Of a stretch of 64,000 nt of DNA, positions 6,808 through 34,060 are shown piece by piece; the first letter of the stretch is position 1, and every line of letters begins with the position of its first letter. The stretch spans positions 64,170,001 through 64,234,000 of the forward strand of contig OX597818.1 of NCBI GenBank assembly GCA_951406725.2, read 5' to 3'. Position numbers and translations under genes: made by a program. The DNA comes from Octopus vulgaris. Its lineage: Eukaryota. The notes under the pieces are model-generated. The model searched no databases and was not told the origin of the DNA. It was given only the letters and a program-made list of their open reading frames with translations.

Positions 6808-7224
6808 AGGCGCAGGAGTGGCTGTGTGGTAAGTAGCTTGCTAACCAACCACATGGTTCAGGGTTCAGTCCCACTGCGTGGCACCTTGGGTAAGTGTCTT
6901 CTACTAAAGCCACGGGCCGACCAATGCCTTGTGAGTGGATTTGGTAGACGGAAACTGAATGAAGCCCGTCGTATATATGTATATATATATATGTATATGT
7001 GTGTGTTTGTGTGTCTGTGTTTGTCCCTCTAGCATTGCTTGACAACCGATGCTGGCGTGTTTATGTCCCCGTCACCTAGTGGTTCGGCAAAAGACACCGA
7101 TAGAATAAGTACTGGGATTACAAAAGAATAAGTCCCAGGGTCGAGTTGCTCGATTAAAGGCGGTGCTCCAGCATGACCGCAGTCAAATGACTGAAACAAG
7201 TAAAAGAGTAAAAGAGTAAAAGAG
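6808..7224 (+). mobile_element. SINE family B, full length
   Basis: aggcgcaggagtggctgtgtggtaag head, A and B boxes, internal (TA)n(TG)n linker, 3' tail gtaaaagagtaaaagagtaaaagag. Confidence 0.92.
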
Positions 7225-13225: not shown

Positions 13226-13702
13226 TCTCAATTGTTGATATTATAATTCCCTTCTCTCTGTTTTTTGCTACGGTACTTACCGTTAAAATATGTTTACTAG
13301 ATAACTCACGTGGGTGGAAGGGGAAGGAACTTGAATCTTCGCTTGTACATTTTGAATTTGCTAGTACTGGCAGTTTTGAAGATGTTTGTCTGAAGTGATA
13401 CATCGCTGGACGGGTATGTTCATTATTTTTAGTGCTTTCAAATCCAGAATTAAGAAATGTTGAGCTGACGAAAGAAATGCTGAGTTTTATTTCGGCTAAT
13501 TTAGAAACGTTGACGTTCTCAAATGACCTTTGAACTTGTGATATTTTACTGTTTTTACCTCCATATCTTCGTGAGTTGTCTTTGAGTAAACATTATCTGA
13601 GAGAAGTTTTCTTAAAGTAGTGGAAATGGCTAAAAACTTTTTGGCTGCTATTTCTAGAAAGTTCAGTATGTGGCAAAGTAATTTATTTTACTAAGCCCTA
13701 AT

Positions 13703-13706
<4 letters not shown>
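13226..13706 (+). mobile_element. Hammerhead-bearing non-coding module, a diverged relative of the 30-kb element (Penelope pseudo-LTR/retrozyme-like)
   Basis: Colinear with 30400-30872 (ctcaattgttga.attataatt, ggtgga.gggg, tcttcgcttg, gggtatgttc, caaatcca, ttgagctga.ga, gctgctatttcta, ggcaaagtaatt.attttactaagccct). Flanked by (TATC)n and (TA)n. Confidence 0.75.
13460..13522 (+). ncRNA. Putative type I hammerhead ribozyme
   Basis: Stem I TTGAG/CTCAA; core CTGACGA (13465-13471); stem II aaat-gctgag...ttcggc-t-aattt; GAAA (13504-13507); stem III ACGT-tg-ACGT; cleavage triplet GTT. Confidence 0.7.
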
Positions 13707-13754
<48 letters not shown>

Positions 13755-26975: not shown

Positions 26976-27137
<162 letters not shown>

Positions 27138-27697
27138 ATTTTGGCACTTTTGGTAAATTGCATACGACAGACTTGAGTTATTTAAAGTAACGGAAAAGAG
27201 CAGGCAGAGTTGATGATACTTATTTATTGAACATGCATATATAAGGATCAACAAAAATGGGACACATCAAAATATTGCTACTAAATAAGAGTTTATTCAC
27301 TGTTATTTAAAGCAAGTAATACAGCCATATTTAAGGATCTTGTATTTTGTCAGTTGGCGCGAAAATAATCCGTGCTGAGCAAGGGTATATGGGTTGCCGT
27401 TGAGTGCGGTTTTCTCTACGTCCGCCTGTTTGATATTGGACTGTCTCATGTCGGTTATGCATGTTCTGCAACACGTAGTTATCGGACGACTTCTCTCTCT
27501 CTCTTATCTCACTGGTAATACTTGTTTTAGAATAGTGCTGTTCTGGAAACCAGATGATATGACCTCCTAGCTTCAGTTTTAGTTCATTCGTGATTGCGAA
27601 AAGTGGTCGTGTTTTTGGTTCTCTTTAGAACGTATTCATTACTTACGTGGTTTGGTGGTTAAGTTATCAGAAGCCTATTAATACATATTTGATTGAA

Positions 27698-28295
27698 GAG
27701 GACGAGCTGGCATAAATGTTAGCATGACGGACGAAATGCTTAGCGATATTTCGTCTACCGTTACATTCTTAGTTCAAATTCGGCCGAGGTCAACTTTGCC
27801 TTTCATCCCTTCGTGGTTGATAAATTAAGTACTAGCTACGCACTGGGTTGTTGTAATTGACTTAATTCCTTTGTCTTTCGTTGTTTGACCCCTCTGTGTT
27901 TAGCTCCTTGTGGACATTGAAGAAATAAGAAACGTTTGCCGACGGGCGAAGTGCTTAGCGGTATTTCGTCTGCCGTCACGTTCTGAGTTCAAATTCCGCC
28001 GAGGTCGACTTTACTTTTCATCCTTTCGGGGTCGATAAATTAAGTACCAGCTACGCATTGGGGTCGATGTAATCGACTTAATCCGTTTCTCTGTCCTTGT
28101 TTGTCCTCTGTGTTTAGCCCTTTGTGGGTAGTAAAGAAATTGGTATTTCTTCTGCCGTTACGTTCTGAGTTCAAAACCCGCCTTTCATCCTTTCGGGGTC
28201 GATAAATTAAGTACCAGTTGGATACTGGGGTCGATCTAATCGGATGGCTCCTTCCCAAAACTTTTCGGGTCTTGTGCCTAGAGTAGAAAGAAAGG
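27698..28295 (+). mobile_element. SINE family C trimer within one perfect 18-bp TSD
   Basis: TSD aatacatatttgattgaa at 27680-27697 and 28296-28313. Three units, the last with the alternative tail cttgtgcctagagtagaaag. Confidence 0.92.
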
Positions 28296-28879
28296 AATAC
28301 ATATTTGATTGAAAACATCTATCATCCTGGTCAAAACAATATATTAATACCTAGTGTTACCCTGTTCTTTCTCAGCTAACGTCACACCATTTCATTTGGT
28401 CAAAAACAGGATTTGCTTCCTGACATAGAAATGTAGATAGAAAGGTCAGCGTAGGACTTATGTCTATTAATATCTCACAGGGCAATAACATTACTTTACC
28501 GTTTGTAATTTTGTGAAACATCTGAAATATTGGCAGTATACAACGAAACCATGAATATAAAAAAGTACATGACGTGGCTATATCCGAATTTTCCACGCGA
28601 TGTCATAATTTAATTAAATTGTGAGGTGTACATTATTCGACAAATTATTTTCACGATGTTAATGTGTCAACACACGAAGGTAAATCAAACAGCTATTTAT
28701 ATTCTAGCTAACCAACGATGTTTGGTACTTAACTCTGAATTTGTATACGTCTATAAATCACCAAATTGGTAAAATACTCGTTTCACAAATTCCGAGAACG
28801 GGATTTTACTGCTGCAGTAATTGTCATCTTTATTATACCACTAAAGTTTCGTGACGTCCTATTCCTAGACATTAATCTG

Positions 28880-29314
28880 TTTCTTTATCACCAACAAGGG
28901 GTTAAACACAGAGGGGACAAACAAGGACAGACAAACTTATCAAGTCCATTATCGACCCCAAAATGATGAAAGGCAAAGTCGACCGCGGTGGAATATGAAC
29001 CCAGAACGTGACGGCAGACGAAATACGGCTACGCATTTCGCCCGGTGTGCTAACGTTTCTGCCAGCTCGCTGCCTTCATTCTATTTCTTTATTACCCACA
29101 AGGGGCTAAACACAGAGGGGACAAACAAGGACAGACAAATGGATTAAGTCGATTACATCGACCCCAGTGCGTAACTGGTACTTAATTTATCGAACCCGAA
29201 AGGATGAAAGGCAAAGTCGACCGCGGTGGAATATGAACCCAGAACGTGACGGCAGACGAAATACGGCTACGCAATTCGCCCGGTGTGCTAACGTTTCTGC
29301 CAGCTCGCCGCCTT
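28880..29314 (-). mobile_element. Two tandem family C SINE units
   Basis: Units at about 28880-29076 (internally deleted) and 29082-29314 share the variant gaccgcggtggaatatgaacccag. Flanked by att..agacattaatc on both sides. Confidence 0.88.
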
Positions 29315-29681
29315 CATTTCCAGACATTAATCCTACAACTAGTATTCTTAAAAATGTTTGATTCTATAAAATACTCTCAACGCAATCTATGTTCAAATAA
29401 TGAAAGTGTACTCATTGTTTCTTTGTTTTTTTTTTAATTTTCCTGTTTATTATTTTCTGGTTGCTATGTATTCACTATTTCAATGTGAAATGTTTGTCCG
29501 AATTCAGATTCTACGATCAACCGTTTCGATCTTCCAAGTAGGTCGCTGCGTTCCATAATTAATCGTACTGAGTAAAGAGCCGAATTAATCTCTGTTGAAT
29601 AAATCTCTACTTGACGGTTTACAAAAGAGCAAGGCCTGTAGTTTTCCTATAATTAAATTCTACGTTACATTCATGAGAGAA
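29240..29681. repeat. Dispersed duplication copy 1 (partner 34061-34499)
   Basis: SINE C head plus about 365 bp of non-SINE flank (agacattaatcctacaactagtattct...acattcatgagagaa) repeated 4.8 kb downstream. Confidence 0.93.
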
Positions 29682-29921
29682 TTTCCAATATAGCACTGGG
29701 ATAAAGCGGTTATTCAATGGGACTTTTATCCTTTTCACCTGATAAAATGAGATCACCTATAACAGATAATCATGTACCTATAATATTGAGAAGACCCACG
29801 TGATTTAACAGGCGTCTGTTTATCTATCCATCTATCTATCTATCTATCTGTCTATATATCTATATATCTATCTATCTGTCTGTCTGTCTGTCTATCTATG
29901 TATCTATGTATTATCTATCTA

Positions 29922-29967
<46 letters not shown>

Positions 29968-29974
<7 letters not shown>

Positions 29975-30972
29975 TACATTATATAAAAGGGCTTAGTAAA
30001 ATAAATTACTTTGCCGCATACTGAACTCATTAGAAATAGCAGCTAAAAACTTTTTAAAGCTATTTCTAATACTTAAAGAAAATCTCTCTCATATATAGTG
30101 TTTGCTTAATTCAACTCACAAAAGTTTGGGGGTAAGGACATCAAAAAATCAAATGCTAAGGTTATTTGAGAACGTACGTTGAATTAAGCAAACACTATAT
30201 ACGAGAGAGATTTTCTTTAAGTATTAGAAATAGCTTTAAAAAAGTTTTTTAGCTGCTATTTCTAATGAGTTCAGTATGCGGCAAAGTAATTTATTTTACT
30301 AAGCCCTTTTATATAATGTAATAATTTGAATTCGCCTTAAATGGTCCCTTTGCATACTGAACACTTGGTGAAATTGATTAATAATTAATTAATTTTACCC
30401 TCAATTGTTGAAATTATAATTAATCTCCCTCTAATTAATGCTTCGGATTTTACCTAAATAAGCATAGTGTTTGATGATTTTAACCCACGCTGGTGGAGAG
30501 GGGAGAACAGAAATTCTTCGCTTGCTTATTTGGGTTTGTTGGCACTGTTAGTTGCGAGCAGATCTTCGAGAGCGATGAGAAGCCGAAAGGGTATGTTCTT
30601 ACTTTCAGTGTTTCCAAATCCAAACCAAGGAGTTTTTGAGCTGATGATAGAAGTGTTGTTTTGACTAATCTTGAAACGTACGTTCTCAAATAACCTTAGC
30701 ATTTGATTTTTTGATGTCCTTACCCCCACACTTTTGTGAGTTGAATTAAGCAAACACTATATATGAGAGAGATTTTCTTTAAGTATTAGAAATAGCTTTA
30801 AAAAAGTTTTTTAGCTGCTATTTCTAATGAGTTCAGTATGCGGCAAAGTAATTAATTTTACTAAGCCCTTTTATATAATGTAATAATTTGAATTCGCCTT
30901 AAATGGTCCCTTTGCATACTGAACACTTGGTGAAATTGATTAATAATTAATTAATTTTACCCTCAATTGTTG

Positions 30973-30980
<8 letters not shown>
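29968..30980 (+). mobile_element. Hammerhead-bearing 562-bp repeat unit in partial tandem with an inverted 5' copy, inserted in (TA)n (Penelope pseudo-LTR/retrozyme-like)
   Basis: Direct repeats 30178-30418 and 30740-30980 (offset 562). 29968-30180 is the reverse complement of 30675-30889. (TA)n on both sides. No long ORF. Confidence 0.85.
30635..30690 (+). ncRNA. Putative type I hammerhead ribozyme
   Basis: Stem I TTTGAG/CTCAAA; CTGATGA (30641-30647); imperfect stem II; GAAA (30673-30676); palindromic stem III ACGTACGT; predicted cleavage after T30684. Confidence 0.72.
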
Positions 30981-31008
<28 letters not shown>

Positions 31009-31012
31009 TGTA

Positions 31013-31120
<108 letters not shown>

Positions 31121-31350
31121 TGTATGTATATATATAATATATATATAAATATCTATATATCTATCTATCTACATACCTATCTACCTACCTACCTCCCTAT
31201 CAGGCTGTCTGTATGTCTGCATGTCTGTCTATCTGCTTGCCTGTCTGTCTATGTAGAGTAATCCTTCGCCATATCGCGATACACATATCACGTTTTTTTT
31301 TTAAATTTAAGCTTACGCTGATTCCTCCCTGGTGTTGTCTTGCTTTTCTA

Positions 31351-32643
31351 GTAGGTGGGCAACTAAGTTCCCGCCGTTTTTTTAAATAATTTATATGTTT
31401 TAAAAGGTTTAATAAACAATGACAACTAATTAATCAATAATGTATTCACCCTTGTTGTTTACAACTTCTTCCCAACAACGTTCAACAAGATTTTCAATAC
31501 CTGTTGGTGGAAATCACCCGATTTCCACTCGAAAAATTGATCCAACCAAGCTCTCAATTCTGCATCAGTATTAAACTCACCGCATTGAATTTGAAAGAGA
31601 TCGAAAGATGTGCAAATCCGTTGGTGCCAAATCAGGAGAGTACGGTAGGTGTGGCAGCACTTCCCCGCCGTGCGTTTGAATGTCTTTCTTGGTCATATTG
31701 GCGATATGCGAGCGGGCGTTGTCGTTCAGCAGAAGAACTCTATACTGCCGATTAGGTCTTTTCTCTTGAATATCCGTGTTGAGTCATTCCATCTGTTGAA
31801 TATAGAGTTCCGCGTTGACCGTTTGGTTCCGTTCAAGCAATTCGTAATGGATAATCTTTTCCTAGTCCCACCATACGCACAACATCGTTTTACGCGAATT
31901 AAAATTTTGTTTCACACGCGGTATCACTTGTTTACCAGGGCTAAATAATTCCTTACGCTTCTTCATATTGATGTACGGGCCCCCTTTTTCGTCGCCAGTA
32001 ACGATTCGGTAAAGAAATCGTTGCTTATGTCCATGAGTTGAGCGGTGACAAGCAAGCAAACCAGCGGAAATTGTGGCTCGTTGATTTTTGTTGTTGTAAC
32101 TTAAAGCATGCGGAAACCATGCTCCATACTTTTGAACCTTTCCCACCGAGTGAAAATTCTTCTCTATAGCAGTTTGGAAGCATTCCATTTTCTCTGCCAG
32201 TTCCCTTATCCTAGGAGAATTGTCGTGCATAAGTTGGTTTAATCGCTCCTCATGGAACTCAGCTGGACGGCCAGAACGAGGTGTGTCTTTGAGGTCAAAA
32301 ATTTCATTTTTGATCTTGGCATGCCAAGCACGAACGGTTCTTTCAGCTATGGTAACCCTCTCCATGCACAGCACAAATGTCGTGAGCTGCTTTTGCGGCC
32401 TTAGAACCTTGATTAAAAGTAAAAAGAACGAGGTGTCGAATATGCTCGTTTTTCTTAAATTGACATTCCATTTTAATGATTTGAAAATAAATAAAAATTA
32501 ACTAAAATTGACTAGAAAAACAACAAAATAGATTCCATAATGATTCGAAAACAGAATTCTCGAAAAAAATGGATTCCGAAATCTAAAAACGCAATAAATT
32601 CCAAAATTAAAAGAAAACGGTATGAACATAGTTGCCAATGCAA
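31351..32643 (-). mobile_element. Full-length decayed mariner DNA transposon (1293 bp)
   Basis: Imperfect TIRs gtaggtgggcaactaagttcccgccgtttt / aaaacggtatgaacatagttgccaatgcaa. TA on both sides. Typical 1.3-kb length. Confidence 0.93.
31430..32471 (-). pseudogene. Mariner (DD34D-type) transposase pseudogene
   Basis: MECQFKKNEHIRH start, PRSGRP, WFPHAL (WVPHEL), IVTGDEK, MLCVWWD, DNARSH, LPHLPYSPDLAPTDLHIFRS. Interrupted by stops and frameshifts. Confidence 0.93.
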
Positions 32644-33462
32644 TATTTCGTGTATTTTCTATCACGAAGGATTTTGGAACGTCACACCCGCGAGAGTCGA
32701 GGTATTACTGTACTTATTTATATGTGTATGTGTGCTTGTGATTGCATATGTGTATTTGTATGTGAGAGAGACAGAGAGAGGAAGGGAAGGAGAGAAAATA
32801 ACCAAGCCAGGATCAGCGTCACAGAGAGCATCATCGAAGACTCCAGAACAACAATATAGTAGGTAAATGAAGTACGCTTTCACACATATACATATGATCC
32901 AAGAAGCACATAGCCATGAATATGTTACACCTTCAAATATAGCAAGAGATAAACCAGAACACATGTCAGTGGACACATTTATGTTAAAACACAATAGATA
33001 TTTTAAACGAAGAAACGAGCACAGAACCTACGCAAAAGCCACACTCAGTTATAATCATAAGTAGGATCTCATCAGGATGATAACACAATAGGGAGCGGTC
33101 ACACTTGTATGAATATCCTCATATAAGCTGGACACGGTCGATCAAACTTCTGATTAGGTTTTCATGCATAAACTTACCTTACATAGGTTATAATCGAAAA
33201 TTTATGTATTGTAATCTATATTTAAGGAAGGTATACTTAATTATGACATAAAGAGTGTGGGTGAGTGTTTGTGTGGGTAATTCAATATGTGTGGTCCCGT
33301 GTGCGTGTGTGTAAGTGTTTGTGTGTGTGGAGGGGTTTATTTGTGCATGGGCACTGAAAGAAAGAGAGAAGGAGAAAGTAATTTGTTAGGAAAATGTAAT
33401 ATAAATTACAGCTTTTAAAACCGTCGCTGTGAAACAAGAGTGTTGTTTTTCACTGAACAAAT

Positions 33463-33498
33463 ACTACTAATACTACCACCACTACTACTACCACCACC

Positions 33499-33538
<40 letters not shown>

Positions 33539-33649
33539 TTACTACGTGCTGCTATTGCTGTTGCTGCTACTAATACTACTACTCATTATGAAGATAATGG
33601 TGATGGTGATGATGAGGATGACGATGATGATGATGATGATGATGATGAC
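33463..33649. repeat. Compound trinucleotide repeats (CTA/CCA/GCT/GAT)
   Basis: Direct reading. Confidence 0.95.
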
Positions 33650-34060
33650 TGAATGTATTACTAGTTATATGACGTAGTTTAGCCTGTTGGCTAATTATAA
33701 AAAGCAACTTTTTTCTTTTAACTATACTGAGAATGTAAAAAAATTTATTTCAATGAGAAATCACAACCAAGAATTCATGGTAGACGCAGCTTTTTTCTAT
33801 TTTTAATATAATTAATCAATACGATTCCCTCAACAAGACCTGTTACAAGGTTTCAGATAAATCTTTTGCAGTAAAACTACAGGTGTGACTTTTTATGCCA
33901 AAACTAGACAAAAGAAACGGATAAGATAAAAGTAGTTATTCCATTCGCATAAAAAATGAAGAAGCGATAACATCCTAAAGTTTTTCACATTTATATTTCG
34001 AATCATTAGAGTTTTTAATGCCCAGCATTGTGTGATAGCTATGAAAGCTGAGAGCAAACT

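What the first reader, a model, noticed from the sequence alone, without database searches (positions are those of the whole stretch)
29968..30980. A 562-nt hammerhead-ribozyme retro-unit in partial tandem plus inversion, inserted in a (TA)n tract
Seen: a non-coding unit of exactly 562 bp (direct repeats 30178-30418 and 30740-30980) carries one well-formed type I hammerhead, TTTGAG-CTGATGA-stemII-GAA-ACGTACGT-T-CTCAAA (30635-30690). It is preceded by an inverted copy and bounded by (TA)n on both sides. Established: Penelope-like elements (PLEs) have partial-tandem and inverted pseudo-LTRs with minimal hammerheads whose short palindromic stem III works as a dimer; non-LTR retrozymes are tandem non-coding hammerhead repeats that yield circular RNA. 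Inference: this is a non-autonomous, self-cleaving, microsatellite-targeting retroelement. It is either a cephalopod retrozyme or a pseudo-LTR-only PLE derivative, and its roughly 1.4-mer structure fits reverse transcription around a circular or tandem RNA.
Basis: partly seen in the sequence, partly recalled or inferred. Interest (0 to 1): 0.85.

Follow-up and report, generated by a model that had tools for sequence, protein, structure and literature searches.

The report
Penelope-copied hammerhead retrozyme, two fixed starts
This is one young copy of an abundant, protein-free jumping repeat that carries a conserved motif predicted to be a self-cutting RNA; it belongs to a known class (animal retrozymes), and its insertion scars suggest that Penelope-type retrotransposon enzymes copy it from two fixed start points, probably off a re-joined RNA circle.

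Summary
Observation confirmed: 562-nt period, inverted arm, type I hammerhead motif with a predicted cut after 30684, (TA)n on both sides. It is one insertion of a non-coding family with at least 808 terminal junctions genome-wide.

The ends are not circularly permuted. Of 143 arms, 132 stop at one of two fixed 3' sites about 98 nt apart, the Penelope 'tail' pattern, usually as two back-to-back arms. None of 79 loci is joined to an RT ORF. The 11 catalytic-core bases show 0 changes in 1951 calls (3% elsewhere). Helices covary across related families. The cut site is read through without an indel 181 of 181 times. This favours cut-and-religated circles as templates, but uncut linear multimers and later DNA-level expansion are not excluded.

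Three autonomous Neptune-type Penelope families share the insertion pattern, but none matches the unit in sequence. Cleavage, expression and circles are untested. New member of a known kind. The scan had already reported sister retrozyme families in this genome with the same reading.

The parts
29924..29967 (.). (TA)n target tract, left half
29968..30180 (-). Inverted arm, 0.38 unit. Its 3' end (29968) is the family's proximal fixed end (unit position 206, where q1 = 30684). Its 5' end lies 9-10 nt upstream of the predicted cut site, so this arm reads across the scissile bond
30165..30180 (-). 3' half of the hammerhead (stem III palindrome, cut site, 3' strand of stem I) inside the inverted arm
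30178..30980 (+). Direct arm, 1.43 units of the 562-nt monomer; 3-nt overlap with the inverted arm at the junction; ends at the distal fixed end (q293-297)
30178..30418 (+). First copy of the 241-nt direct repeat (pseudo-LTR-like partial tandem)
30635..30690 (+). Type I hammerhead motif: stem I 6 bp, CUGAUGA, long stem II with U-U at its base, GAAA, palindromic stem III, GUU; predicted cut after 30684
30740..30980 (+). Second copy of the 241-nt direct repeat
30776..30971 (+). About 200-nt structured 3' module shared by six related families; a long helix encloses the proximal end site; likely the signal bound by the PLE protein (inferred). A second copy lies at 30214-30409
30883..30980 (+). 'Tail': about 98 nt between the two fixed 3' ends; present on this arm, absent from the inverted arm
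30981..31005 (.). (TA)n target tract, right half (boundary ambiguous from 30977)

Best explanation
This is a non-coding, multi-copy ~560-nt repeat with a conserved hammerhead motif that inserts into (TA)n as arms ending at two fixed sites; it is likely a non-LTR retrozyme copied in trans by a Penelope-like (probably Neptune-type) RT-endonuclease, and likely from a self-cleaved, re-ligated RNA circle. Steps: (1) Tandem copies are transcribed (inferred). (2) Two hammerheads pair through their palindromic stem III and cut after GUU to release monomers (predicted; the core is under purifying selection, shown). (3) A ligase closes the monomer without a scar (inferred from mussel and axolotl retrozymes; the seamless junction in DNA is shown). 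(4) A PLE protein, probably a dimer, binds the conserved ~200-nt structured module, cuts both strands of a (TA)n tract, and primes cDNA at two sites ~98 nt apart, one per strand (two-end, two-arm pattern shown; enzymology by analogy with PAc in vitro). (5) Each RT runs a variable distance, often more than one unit, and the two cDNA ends are joined, giving partial tandem plus inversion (pattern shown). (6) Some arrays later gain whole units at the DNA level (suggested by two arrays). My odds: about 0.9 that it is a PLE-mobilised non-autonomous retrozyme, about 0.6 for the whole chain including the circle.
For: Family size: 808 exact 'distal end + TA' junctions, 694 internal junctions, 1999 ribozyme-half matches, controls 0. 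Fixed ends: 132 of 143 arms in 79 loci end at q190-207 or q290-305. In the 39 loci not selected on TA, 63 of 70 arms do, and 62 of those 63 run into (TA)3+. Two-arm loci pair one distal with one proximal end (45 of 79 loci are exactly this). No ORF link: 6 of 79 loci have any PLE-protein hit, all at least 407 nt away across a (TA)n tract. Three autonomous PLE families with RT, a CX2-5CxxC linker and GIY-YIG show (TA)n targets, inverted arms and two ends about 30-45 nt apart. Ribozyme under selection: 0 of 1951 calls vary at the 11 core bases vs 3074 of 102,845 elsewhere; 11 of 11 core positions invariant vs 194 of 551 others. Across 6 sequences of 5 families, 7 of 13 pairs have two-sided changes; 93.6% of cells pair vs 20-41% in slid controls. 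Cofolding two copies gives intermolecular stems III and I at -22.0 vs 2 x -6.6 kcal/mol. Read-through: 181 of 181 passes over the cut site have no indel; 0 of 131 primary arms start at q1-3 over 175 passes. Arrays are clonal: within-locus median 1 substitution (124 pairs), opposite arms median 1 (34 pairs), between loci median 11 (3197 pairs). 18 variants are fixed across both arms of one locus and seen in no other of 39 loci. The two arms' 5' ends coincide within 15 nt in 11 of 26 position-ordered two-arm loci (permutation mean 1.8, max 8 in 20,000), pointing to one template molecule. The monomer folds well, z -5.6.
Against: No cleavage, RNA or circle was shown. 8 of 9 predicted Xenopus retrozyme dimers did not cleave in vitro (bioRxiv 10.64898/2026.07.22.740005), and Anolis PAc transposes in vitro from uncleaved RNA with the hammerhead dispensable (PMC11167929). 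The monomer and circle minimum-energy folds do not form the hammerhead, and the stem II base pair is missing in 5 of 6 aligned sequences. Coincident 5' ends at scattered positions imply templates with a physical end (linear or nicked) or a fold-back step; 0 of the 21 longer, similarity-selected pairs coincide. Period-2 variant blocks in L033 and L037, and in-phase arms differing by whole units in L045 and L104, suggest some array length arises after insertion, so long arrays do not prove rolling-circle copying. 5' ends show a weak excess within about 20 nt of the cut site (15 vs 9.8 expected, P=0.07); two arms start within 2 nt of it (L096, L107). Counts over related copies are not independent events. 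No autonomous PLE with sequence similarity to the module was found, so the enzyme is assigned by pattern only.
Confidence: 0.6

Rival explanations
1. Same class and same PLE enzyme, but the template is an uncleaved linear multimer transcribed from a source array. The hammerhead only trims the RNA out of a longer host transcript, or acts late, and long arrays are regenerated by unequal exchange in DNA.
For: PAc uses unprocessed RNA and hammerhead mutants still insert in vitro (PMC11167929, part 2). 11 of 26 two-arm loci stop at the same template coordinate, as expected for a linear RNA end. Period-2 blocks suggest DNA-level expansion. The monomer fold disfavours the active ribozyme.
Against: It must explain strict conservation of the core together with 175 passes through the site and no pile-up of ends at it. 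Whole arrays of up to 13 units carry one haplotype across both inverted arms, in many sub-lineages.
Confidence: 0.3
2. An ordinary 5'-truncated terminus (pLTR) of an autonomous PLE whose full-length copies were missed.
For: PLE insertions are mostly 5'-truncated, with the same tandem, inverted and tail pattern (PMC8557442). Only the best 40 of 1465 candidates were scored in the similarity search.
Against: Upstream of each unit lies another unit, not an ORF, in arms up to 8.85 units. 0 of 79 loci are joined to an ORF, and none of 175 loci of six related families.
Confidence: 0.03
3. A DNA-level satellite, or a rolling-circle or palindrome-amplified DNA element, with no RNA intermediate.
For: Tandem arrays, perfect palindromic junctions, signs of local block duplication.
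Against: Polarity (fixed 3', scattered 5' ends), selection on ribozyme catalytic bases, covarying RNA helices, and the same scars as coding PLEs.
Confidence: 0.04
4. The element is mobile, but the hammerhead is a dead relic or a protein-binding fold that never cuts.
For: No Rfam hammerhead match; weak stem II base; the youngest relative has a C in place of core U4; most Xenopus candidates were inactive in vitro.
Against: Invariance is confined to catalytic positions while tolerated positions N7 and H17 vary. A relative carries the U3-A8 paired swap, which keeps the core pair.
Confidence: 0.03

Closest known systems
Metazoan non-LTR retrozymes (Cervera & de la Pena 2020, PMC7229834: coral, Mytilus, axolotl; Li, Clavereau & Pollet 2026, bioRxiv 10.64898/2026.07.22.740005)
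   Same: Non-coding tandem units, one type I hammerhead per unit, low GC (34%), strongly folded monomer, dispersed multi-copy family, co-existence with PLEs. The axolotl HHR_Amex2 also has U-U at the base of stem II and works better as a dimer.
   Different: Unit of 543-565 nt, longer than the 150-450 nt of the 2020 paper but inside the 51-972 nt range of the 2026 preprint. Two fixed 3' ends, inverted arms and (TA)n targeting are not described for retrozymes in the parts read ('inverted' and 'microsatellite' have 0 hits in PMC7229834). No pLTR homologue was found, unlike 21 Xenopus cases. circRNA not shown here.
EN+ Penelope-like elements, Neptune/Nematis type, and Poseidon PAc (PMC8557442, PMC11167929, PMC4209133)
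   Same: Partial tandem, adjacent inverted 5'-truncated arm, tail on one end only, two RT start sites, microsatellite targets without visible TSD, hammerhead with palindromic stem III.
   Different: No ORF. Tail about 98 nt instead of 30-40 nt. Longer stem II than the minimal PLE hammerheads. No sequence match to the three coding families examined.
Non-autonomous Chlamys PLEs such as MRC1 (PMC8557442, passage)
   Same: Non-autonomous, pLTR-forming, multicopy head-to-tail insertions.
   Different: [quoted passage not shown]

Membership tests
Metazoan non-LTR retrozyme | Tandem non-coding repeat units | tested here: met
   arms up to 8.85 units; longest stop-free frame 76 aa
Metazoan non-LTR retrozyme | Type I hammerhead motif in every unit | tested here: met
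   core invariant in 175-183 calls per position; covariation; no Rfam match
Metazoan non-LTR retrozyme | No LTR/PBS/PPT, low GC, dispersed copies | tested here: met
   34% GC; copies on many chromosomes; repeats are partial tandems, not LTRs; PBS/PPT not specifically searched
Metazoan non-LTR retrozyme | At least two consecutive complete hammerheads (Li et al. criterion for an active copy) | tested here: inconclusive
   Not met by this locus (one complete hammerhead); met by many other loci of the family
Metazoan non-LTR retrozyme | Self-cleavage of the transcript | not testable with these tools
   only folding and conservation evidence
Metazoan non-LTR retrozyme | Accumulates as circular RNA | not testable with these tools
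   only assembled contigs were available, which cannot show ends, strand or circles
Autonomous EN+ PLE | ORF with PLE RT and GIY-YIG endonuclease | tested here: not met
   0 of 79 loci joined to such an ORF
PLE-type insertion (works like) | Partial tandem plus adjacent inverted 5'-truncated arm | tested here: met
   47 adjacent opposite-arm pairs in 79 loci
PLE-type insertion (works like) | Tail on one end, i.e. two fixed 3' ends | tested here: met
   132 of 143 arms; spacing about 98 nt rather than 30-40
PLE-type insertion (works like) | (TA)n target as in Neptune/Naiad | tested here: met
   62 of 63 ends in loci not selected on TA, and 28 of 28 unselected proximal ends in the C1 sample
pLTR derivative of an extant PLE | Sequence homology to the pLTR of a coding PLE in the same genome | tested here: inconclusive
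   None found by blastn or nhmmer against three intact families and 30 GIY-YIG loci; other, more diverged PLE remnants exist and the genome could not be scanned whole

The most novel reading that the evidence does not exclude
A long-lived lineage of viroid-like circular RNAs, at least six families of 520-590 nt in this genome, that has no surviving pLTR parent and recruits Penelope enzymes through a conserved RNA structure alone. A protein dimer reverse-transcribes one circle from two sites ~98 nt apart. The combination of an invariant catalytic core and scar-free read-through of the cut site would be direct genomic evidence for the circle-as-template step that the retrozyme model proposes but has not shown.
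Probability: 0.35. Interest if true: 0.65.

Novelty: new member of a known kind. Interest (0 to 1): 0.42.

Why it matters
Animal retrozymes are known to make abundant circular RNA, but which enzyme copies them back into DNA, and whether the circle is the template, has been proposed rather than shown. This family gives mapped start sites, a candidate ~200-nt recognition structure and very young coding PLEs in the same genome. That makes the question testable with the published PAc-type in vitro assay. As a class it is not new, and the scan has met sister families in this genome many times.

Tried and rejected
Rfam scan of 27000-34000: no hammerhead, only spurious microRNA matches on TA repeats and the inversion hairpin.

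Circular permutation of ends: rejected for 3' ends. Templates ending at the cut site as the main route: not supported (0 of 131 primary arms at q1-3, 175 passes).

Search for the autonomous partner:
- Family 1 (781 aa), family 2 (785 aa) and family 3 (775 aa plus an upstream ORF) show no homology to the unit or module. The only strong hit among family-3 loci was a nested family-A insertion in L372.
- 30 GIY-YIG loci gave no joined module.
- Six related repeats that might have been coding termini (B, C, D, E, F, G) were all non-coding tandem units again.
- The long upstream stretch of L237 was not a PLE ORF.

Expression: no RNA holder listed. 19 of 24 listed runs hold part of the stretch and none is on record as RNA. 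Four runs guessed to be RNA were laid; they are contigs only, with no usable starts, ends or strand, and no silent-stretch control was run. Not used as evidence either way.

TSD: cannot be seen inside (TA)n. Alignment A1 held one wrong stretch and was replaced by A2.

Full report
Observation. The sequence is as described. A 241-nt direct repeat with 2 mismatches lies at 30178-30418 and 30740-30980, period 562. An inverted partial copy occupies 29968-30180, and (TA)n tracts flank the whole. The hammerhead motif at 30635-30690 has a 6-bp stem I, CUGAUGA, GAAA, a palindromic stem III and GUU, so the predicted cut is after 30684. Stem II begins with U-U. The isolated motif prefers another fold (-6.6 vs -0.6 kcal/mol), while two copies cofold into intermolecular stems III and I (-22.0), the dimer mode described in PMC4209133. 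Rfam gave no hammerhead match. I number the unit from q1 = 30684.

Family. A search of the own genome (2.8 Gb, 227 contigs) gave 167 matches from 40 scored of 1465 candidates. Exact patterns gave 808 distal-end/TA junctions, 694 internal junctions and 1999 ribozyme halves, with 0 for reversed controls. I analysed 79 loci: 39 from the similarity search (L001, L031-L068), which favours long, young copies, and the first 40 by position of the 808 junctions (L089-L128), which were selected on the distal end plus TA.

Ends. Of 143 arms, 78 end at q290-305, 54 at q190-207 and 11 elsewhere. In the 39 loci not selected on TA, 63 of 70 arms fall in the two classes and 62 of those run into (TA)3+. The 28 proximal ends of the position-ordered sample, which were not selected, are all in TA. 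68 of 75 loci have TA on both sides; four complex or gapped loci were left out. The usual insertion is two back-to-back arms, one with each end class. In the window, the direct arm is 1.43 units ending at q297 and the inverted arm is 0.38 unit ending at q206. This is the partial tandem, inverted copy and one-sided tail of Penelope-like elements (PMC8557442). Frangieh et al. (PMC11167929) showed that such a tail is the distance between two RT start sites. Here it is about 98 nt, not 30-40.

Non-autonomy. The unit has no frame over 76 aa. Only 6 of 79 loci hold any PLE-protein hit, always at least 407 nt away across (TA)n. Three coding PLE families were found: 781, 785 and 775 aa, 47-68% identical to one another, each with RT, a CX2-5CxxC linker and GIY-YIG motifs. 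That linker marks Neptune/Nematis in PMC8557442. They show (TA)n targets, inverted arms and two ends about 30-45 nt apart. None matches the unit in sequence, so the partner is inferred from pattern and remains unidentified.

Relatives. Five further non-coding families of about 520-590 nt (B at window 13227-13713, C, D, E, F) share the hammerhead region and a ~200-nt 3' module; G shares only the last hairpin. On six sequences of A, B, D, E and F, 7 of 13 hammerhead pairs change on both sides. 93.6% of cells pair against 20-41% in slid controls, and the base of stem II is unpaired in 5 of 6. I drew that structure from these sequences, which inflates the contrast. RNAalifold on seven module sequences predicts 38 pairs, 5 with two-sided changes but a slightly unfavourable covariation term (+1.62); a long helix encloses the proximal end site. 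Within family A the module varies at 1.0% against 4.1-4.2% for the rest.

Is the ribozyme needed? The 11 core bases show 0 changes in 1951 calls against 3.0% elsewhere, while N7 and H17 vary. All 11 are invariant against 194 of 551 other positions (about 1e-5 if positions were independent; copies are related). Yet cDNA crosses the cut site: 181 of 181 passes have no indel, and 0 of 131 primary arms begin at q1-3 over 175 passes. There is only a weak excess of 5' ends near the site (15 vs 9.8, P=0.07), and two arms begin within 2 nt of it. A ribozyme that must work, with templates intact at its site, is most simply a cut-and-religated circle, as shown for mussel and axolotl RNAs (PMC7229834). 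This step is inference.

One template per insertion. 82 full monomers in 39 loci differ by a median of 1 substitution within a locus, including across opposite arms, and by 11 between loci. 18 variants are fixed across both arms of a single locus and absent from the other 38 young loci; private means private to this sample. In 11 of 26 position-ordered two-arm loci both arms stop within 15 nt of the same coordinate (permutation mean 1.8); none of the 21 longer, similarity-selected pairs do. This fits two RTs on one molecule. It also implies that molecule sometimes had an end, or that a fold-back step exists.

Against a pure rolling-circle reading, L033 and L037 show two-unit blocks duplicated after mutation, and L045 and L104 have in-phase arms differing by whole units. 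Some length is therefore probably added later in DNA; assembly error is also possible. PAc inserts from uncleaved RNA in vitro (PMC11167929), and 8 of 9 Xenopus retrozyme dimers did not cleave (bioRxiv 10.64898/2026.07.22.740005). Hence 0.6 for the circle route and 0.3 for a linear multimer.

Literature seen. bioRxiv 10.64898/2026.07.22.740005, parts 1-3 of 5. PMC11167929, parts 1-2 of 4. PMC7229834, parts 2-4 of 6 and passages. PMC4209133, part 1 of 4. PMC8557442, passages. PMC13282606 and PMC6962438, passages. No supplements were read; they could list such families. Four searches showed no paper describing this family. PMC7229834 has no hit for octopus or cephalopod, PMC13282606 none for ribozyme, and PMC6962438 only counts 235 hammerhead matches in squid. 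Repbase and Dfam could not be searched.

Earlier scan notes. After forming my reading I found notes on sister families of 352-535 nt in this genome with the same interpretation. None matched this unit by sequence. They are unchecked AI notes and are not independent support; the host label 'octopus' comes from them.

Verdict. Real, and a new member of a known kind: a non-autonomous hammerhead retrozyme with Penelope-type insertions. What this family adds is selection on the core combined with scar-free read-through, a conserved candidate recognition structure, and an unusually long tail. Interest 0.42.

Noticed in passing
window 13227-13713 (+): An older relative (family B, 71-80% identical) with its own hammerhead at about 13459-13523; it ends at the same proximal site in (TA)n. 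1992 candidates genome-wide.
   Followed up: yes
L309 900-2200 on the - strand (G000:C4:155899957-155903242): Family F: 588-nt unit, 99-100% identical copies on many chromosomes, so very young. Its core reads CCGAUGA (C at position 4) and it has a very long stem II.
   Followed up: partly
L363 (G000:C1:27838500-27848499): Very young autonomous two-ORF Neptune-type PLE with a 4271-nt unit, 99.5-100% identical copies, and tandem and inverted insertions with two fixed ends. By eye its 3' UTR holds a hammerhead with a CCGAAGA core and U-U at the stem II base.
   Followed up: partly
L129-L144, L175-L204: PLE family 1 carries a minimal hammerhead variant with a UUGAUAA core (U3-A8 swap) about 50-100 nt before its ends.
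   Followed up: partly
L334 1-425, L373-L397: Family G: another ~546-nt non-coding tandem unit in (TA)n that shares only the last hairpin of the module.
   Followed up: partly
L142 (G000:C7:620000-629500), + strand near 6883 and 7365: Two canonical-looking hammerheads 482 nt apart, an unrelated retrozyme-like repeat.
   Followed up: no
window 31862-32497 (-): Remnant with a weak Transposase_1 match (E 1.5e-4, below the curated cut-off), probably mariner-type.
   Followed up: partly
window 27691-28242 and 28876-29318: Several copies of a dispersed ~200-240-nt repeat in both orientations; it looks like a SINE (recalled, not tested).
   Followed up: no
L001, L036, L059: Three arms have their 5' end at q554-555, the start of the stem III palindrome: a possible RT pause or palindrome-mediated junction; post hoc, small numbers.
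   Followed up: partly
L372 9450-9590: A family-A insertion sits in the (TA)n at the end of a very young family-3 PLE, suggesting overlapping activity periods or a shared target.
   Followed up: no
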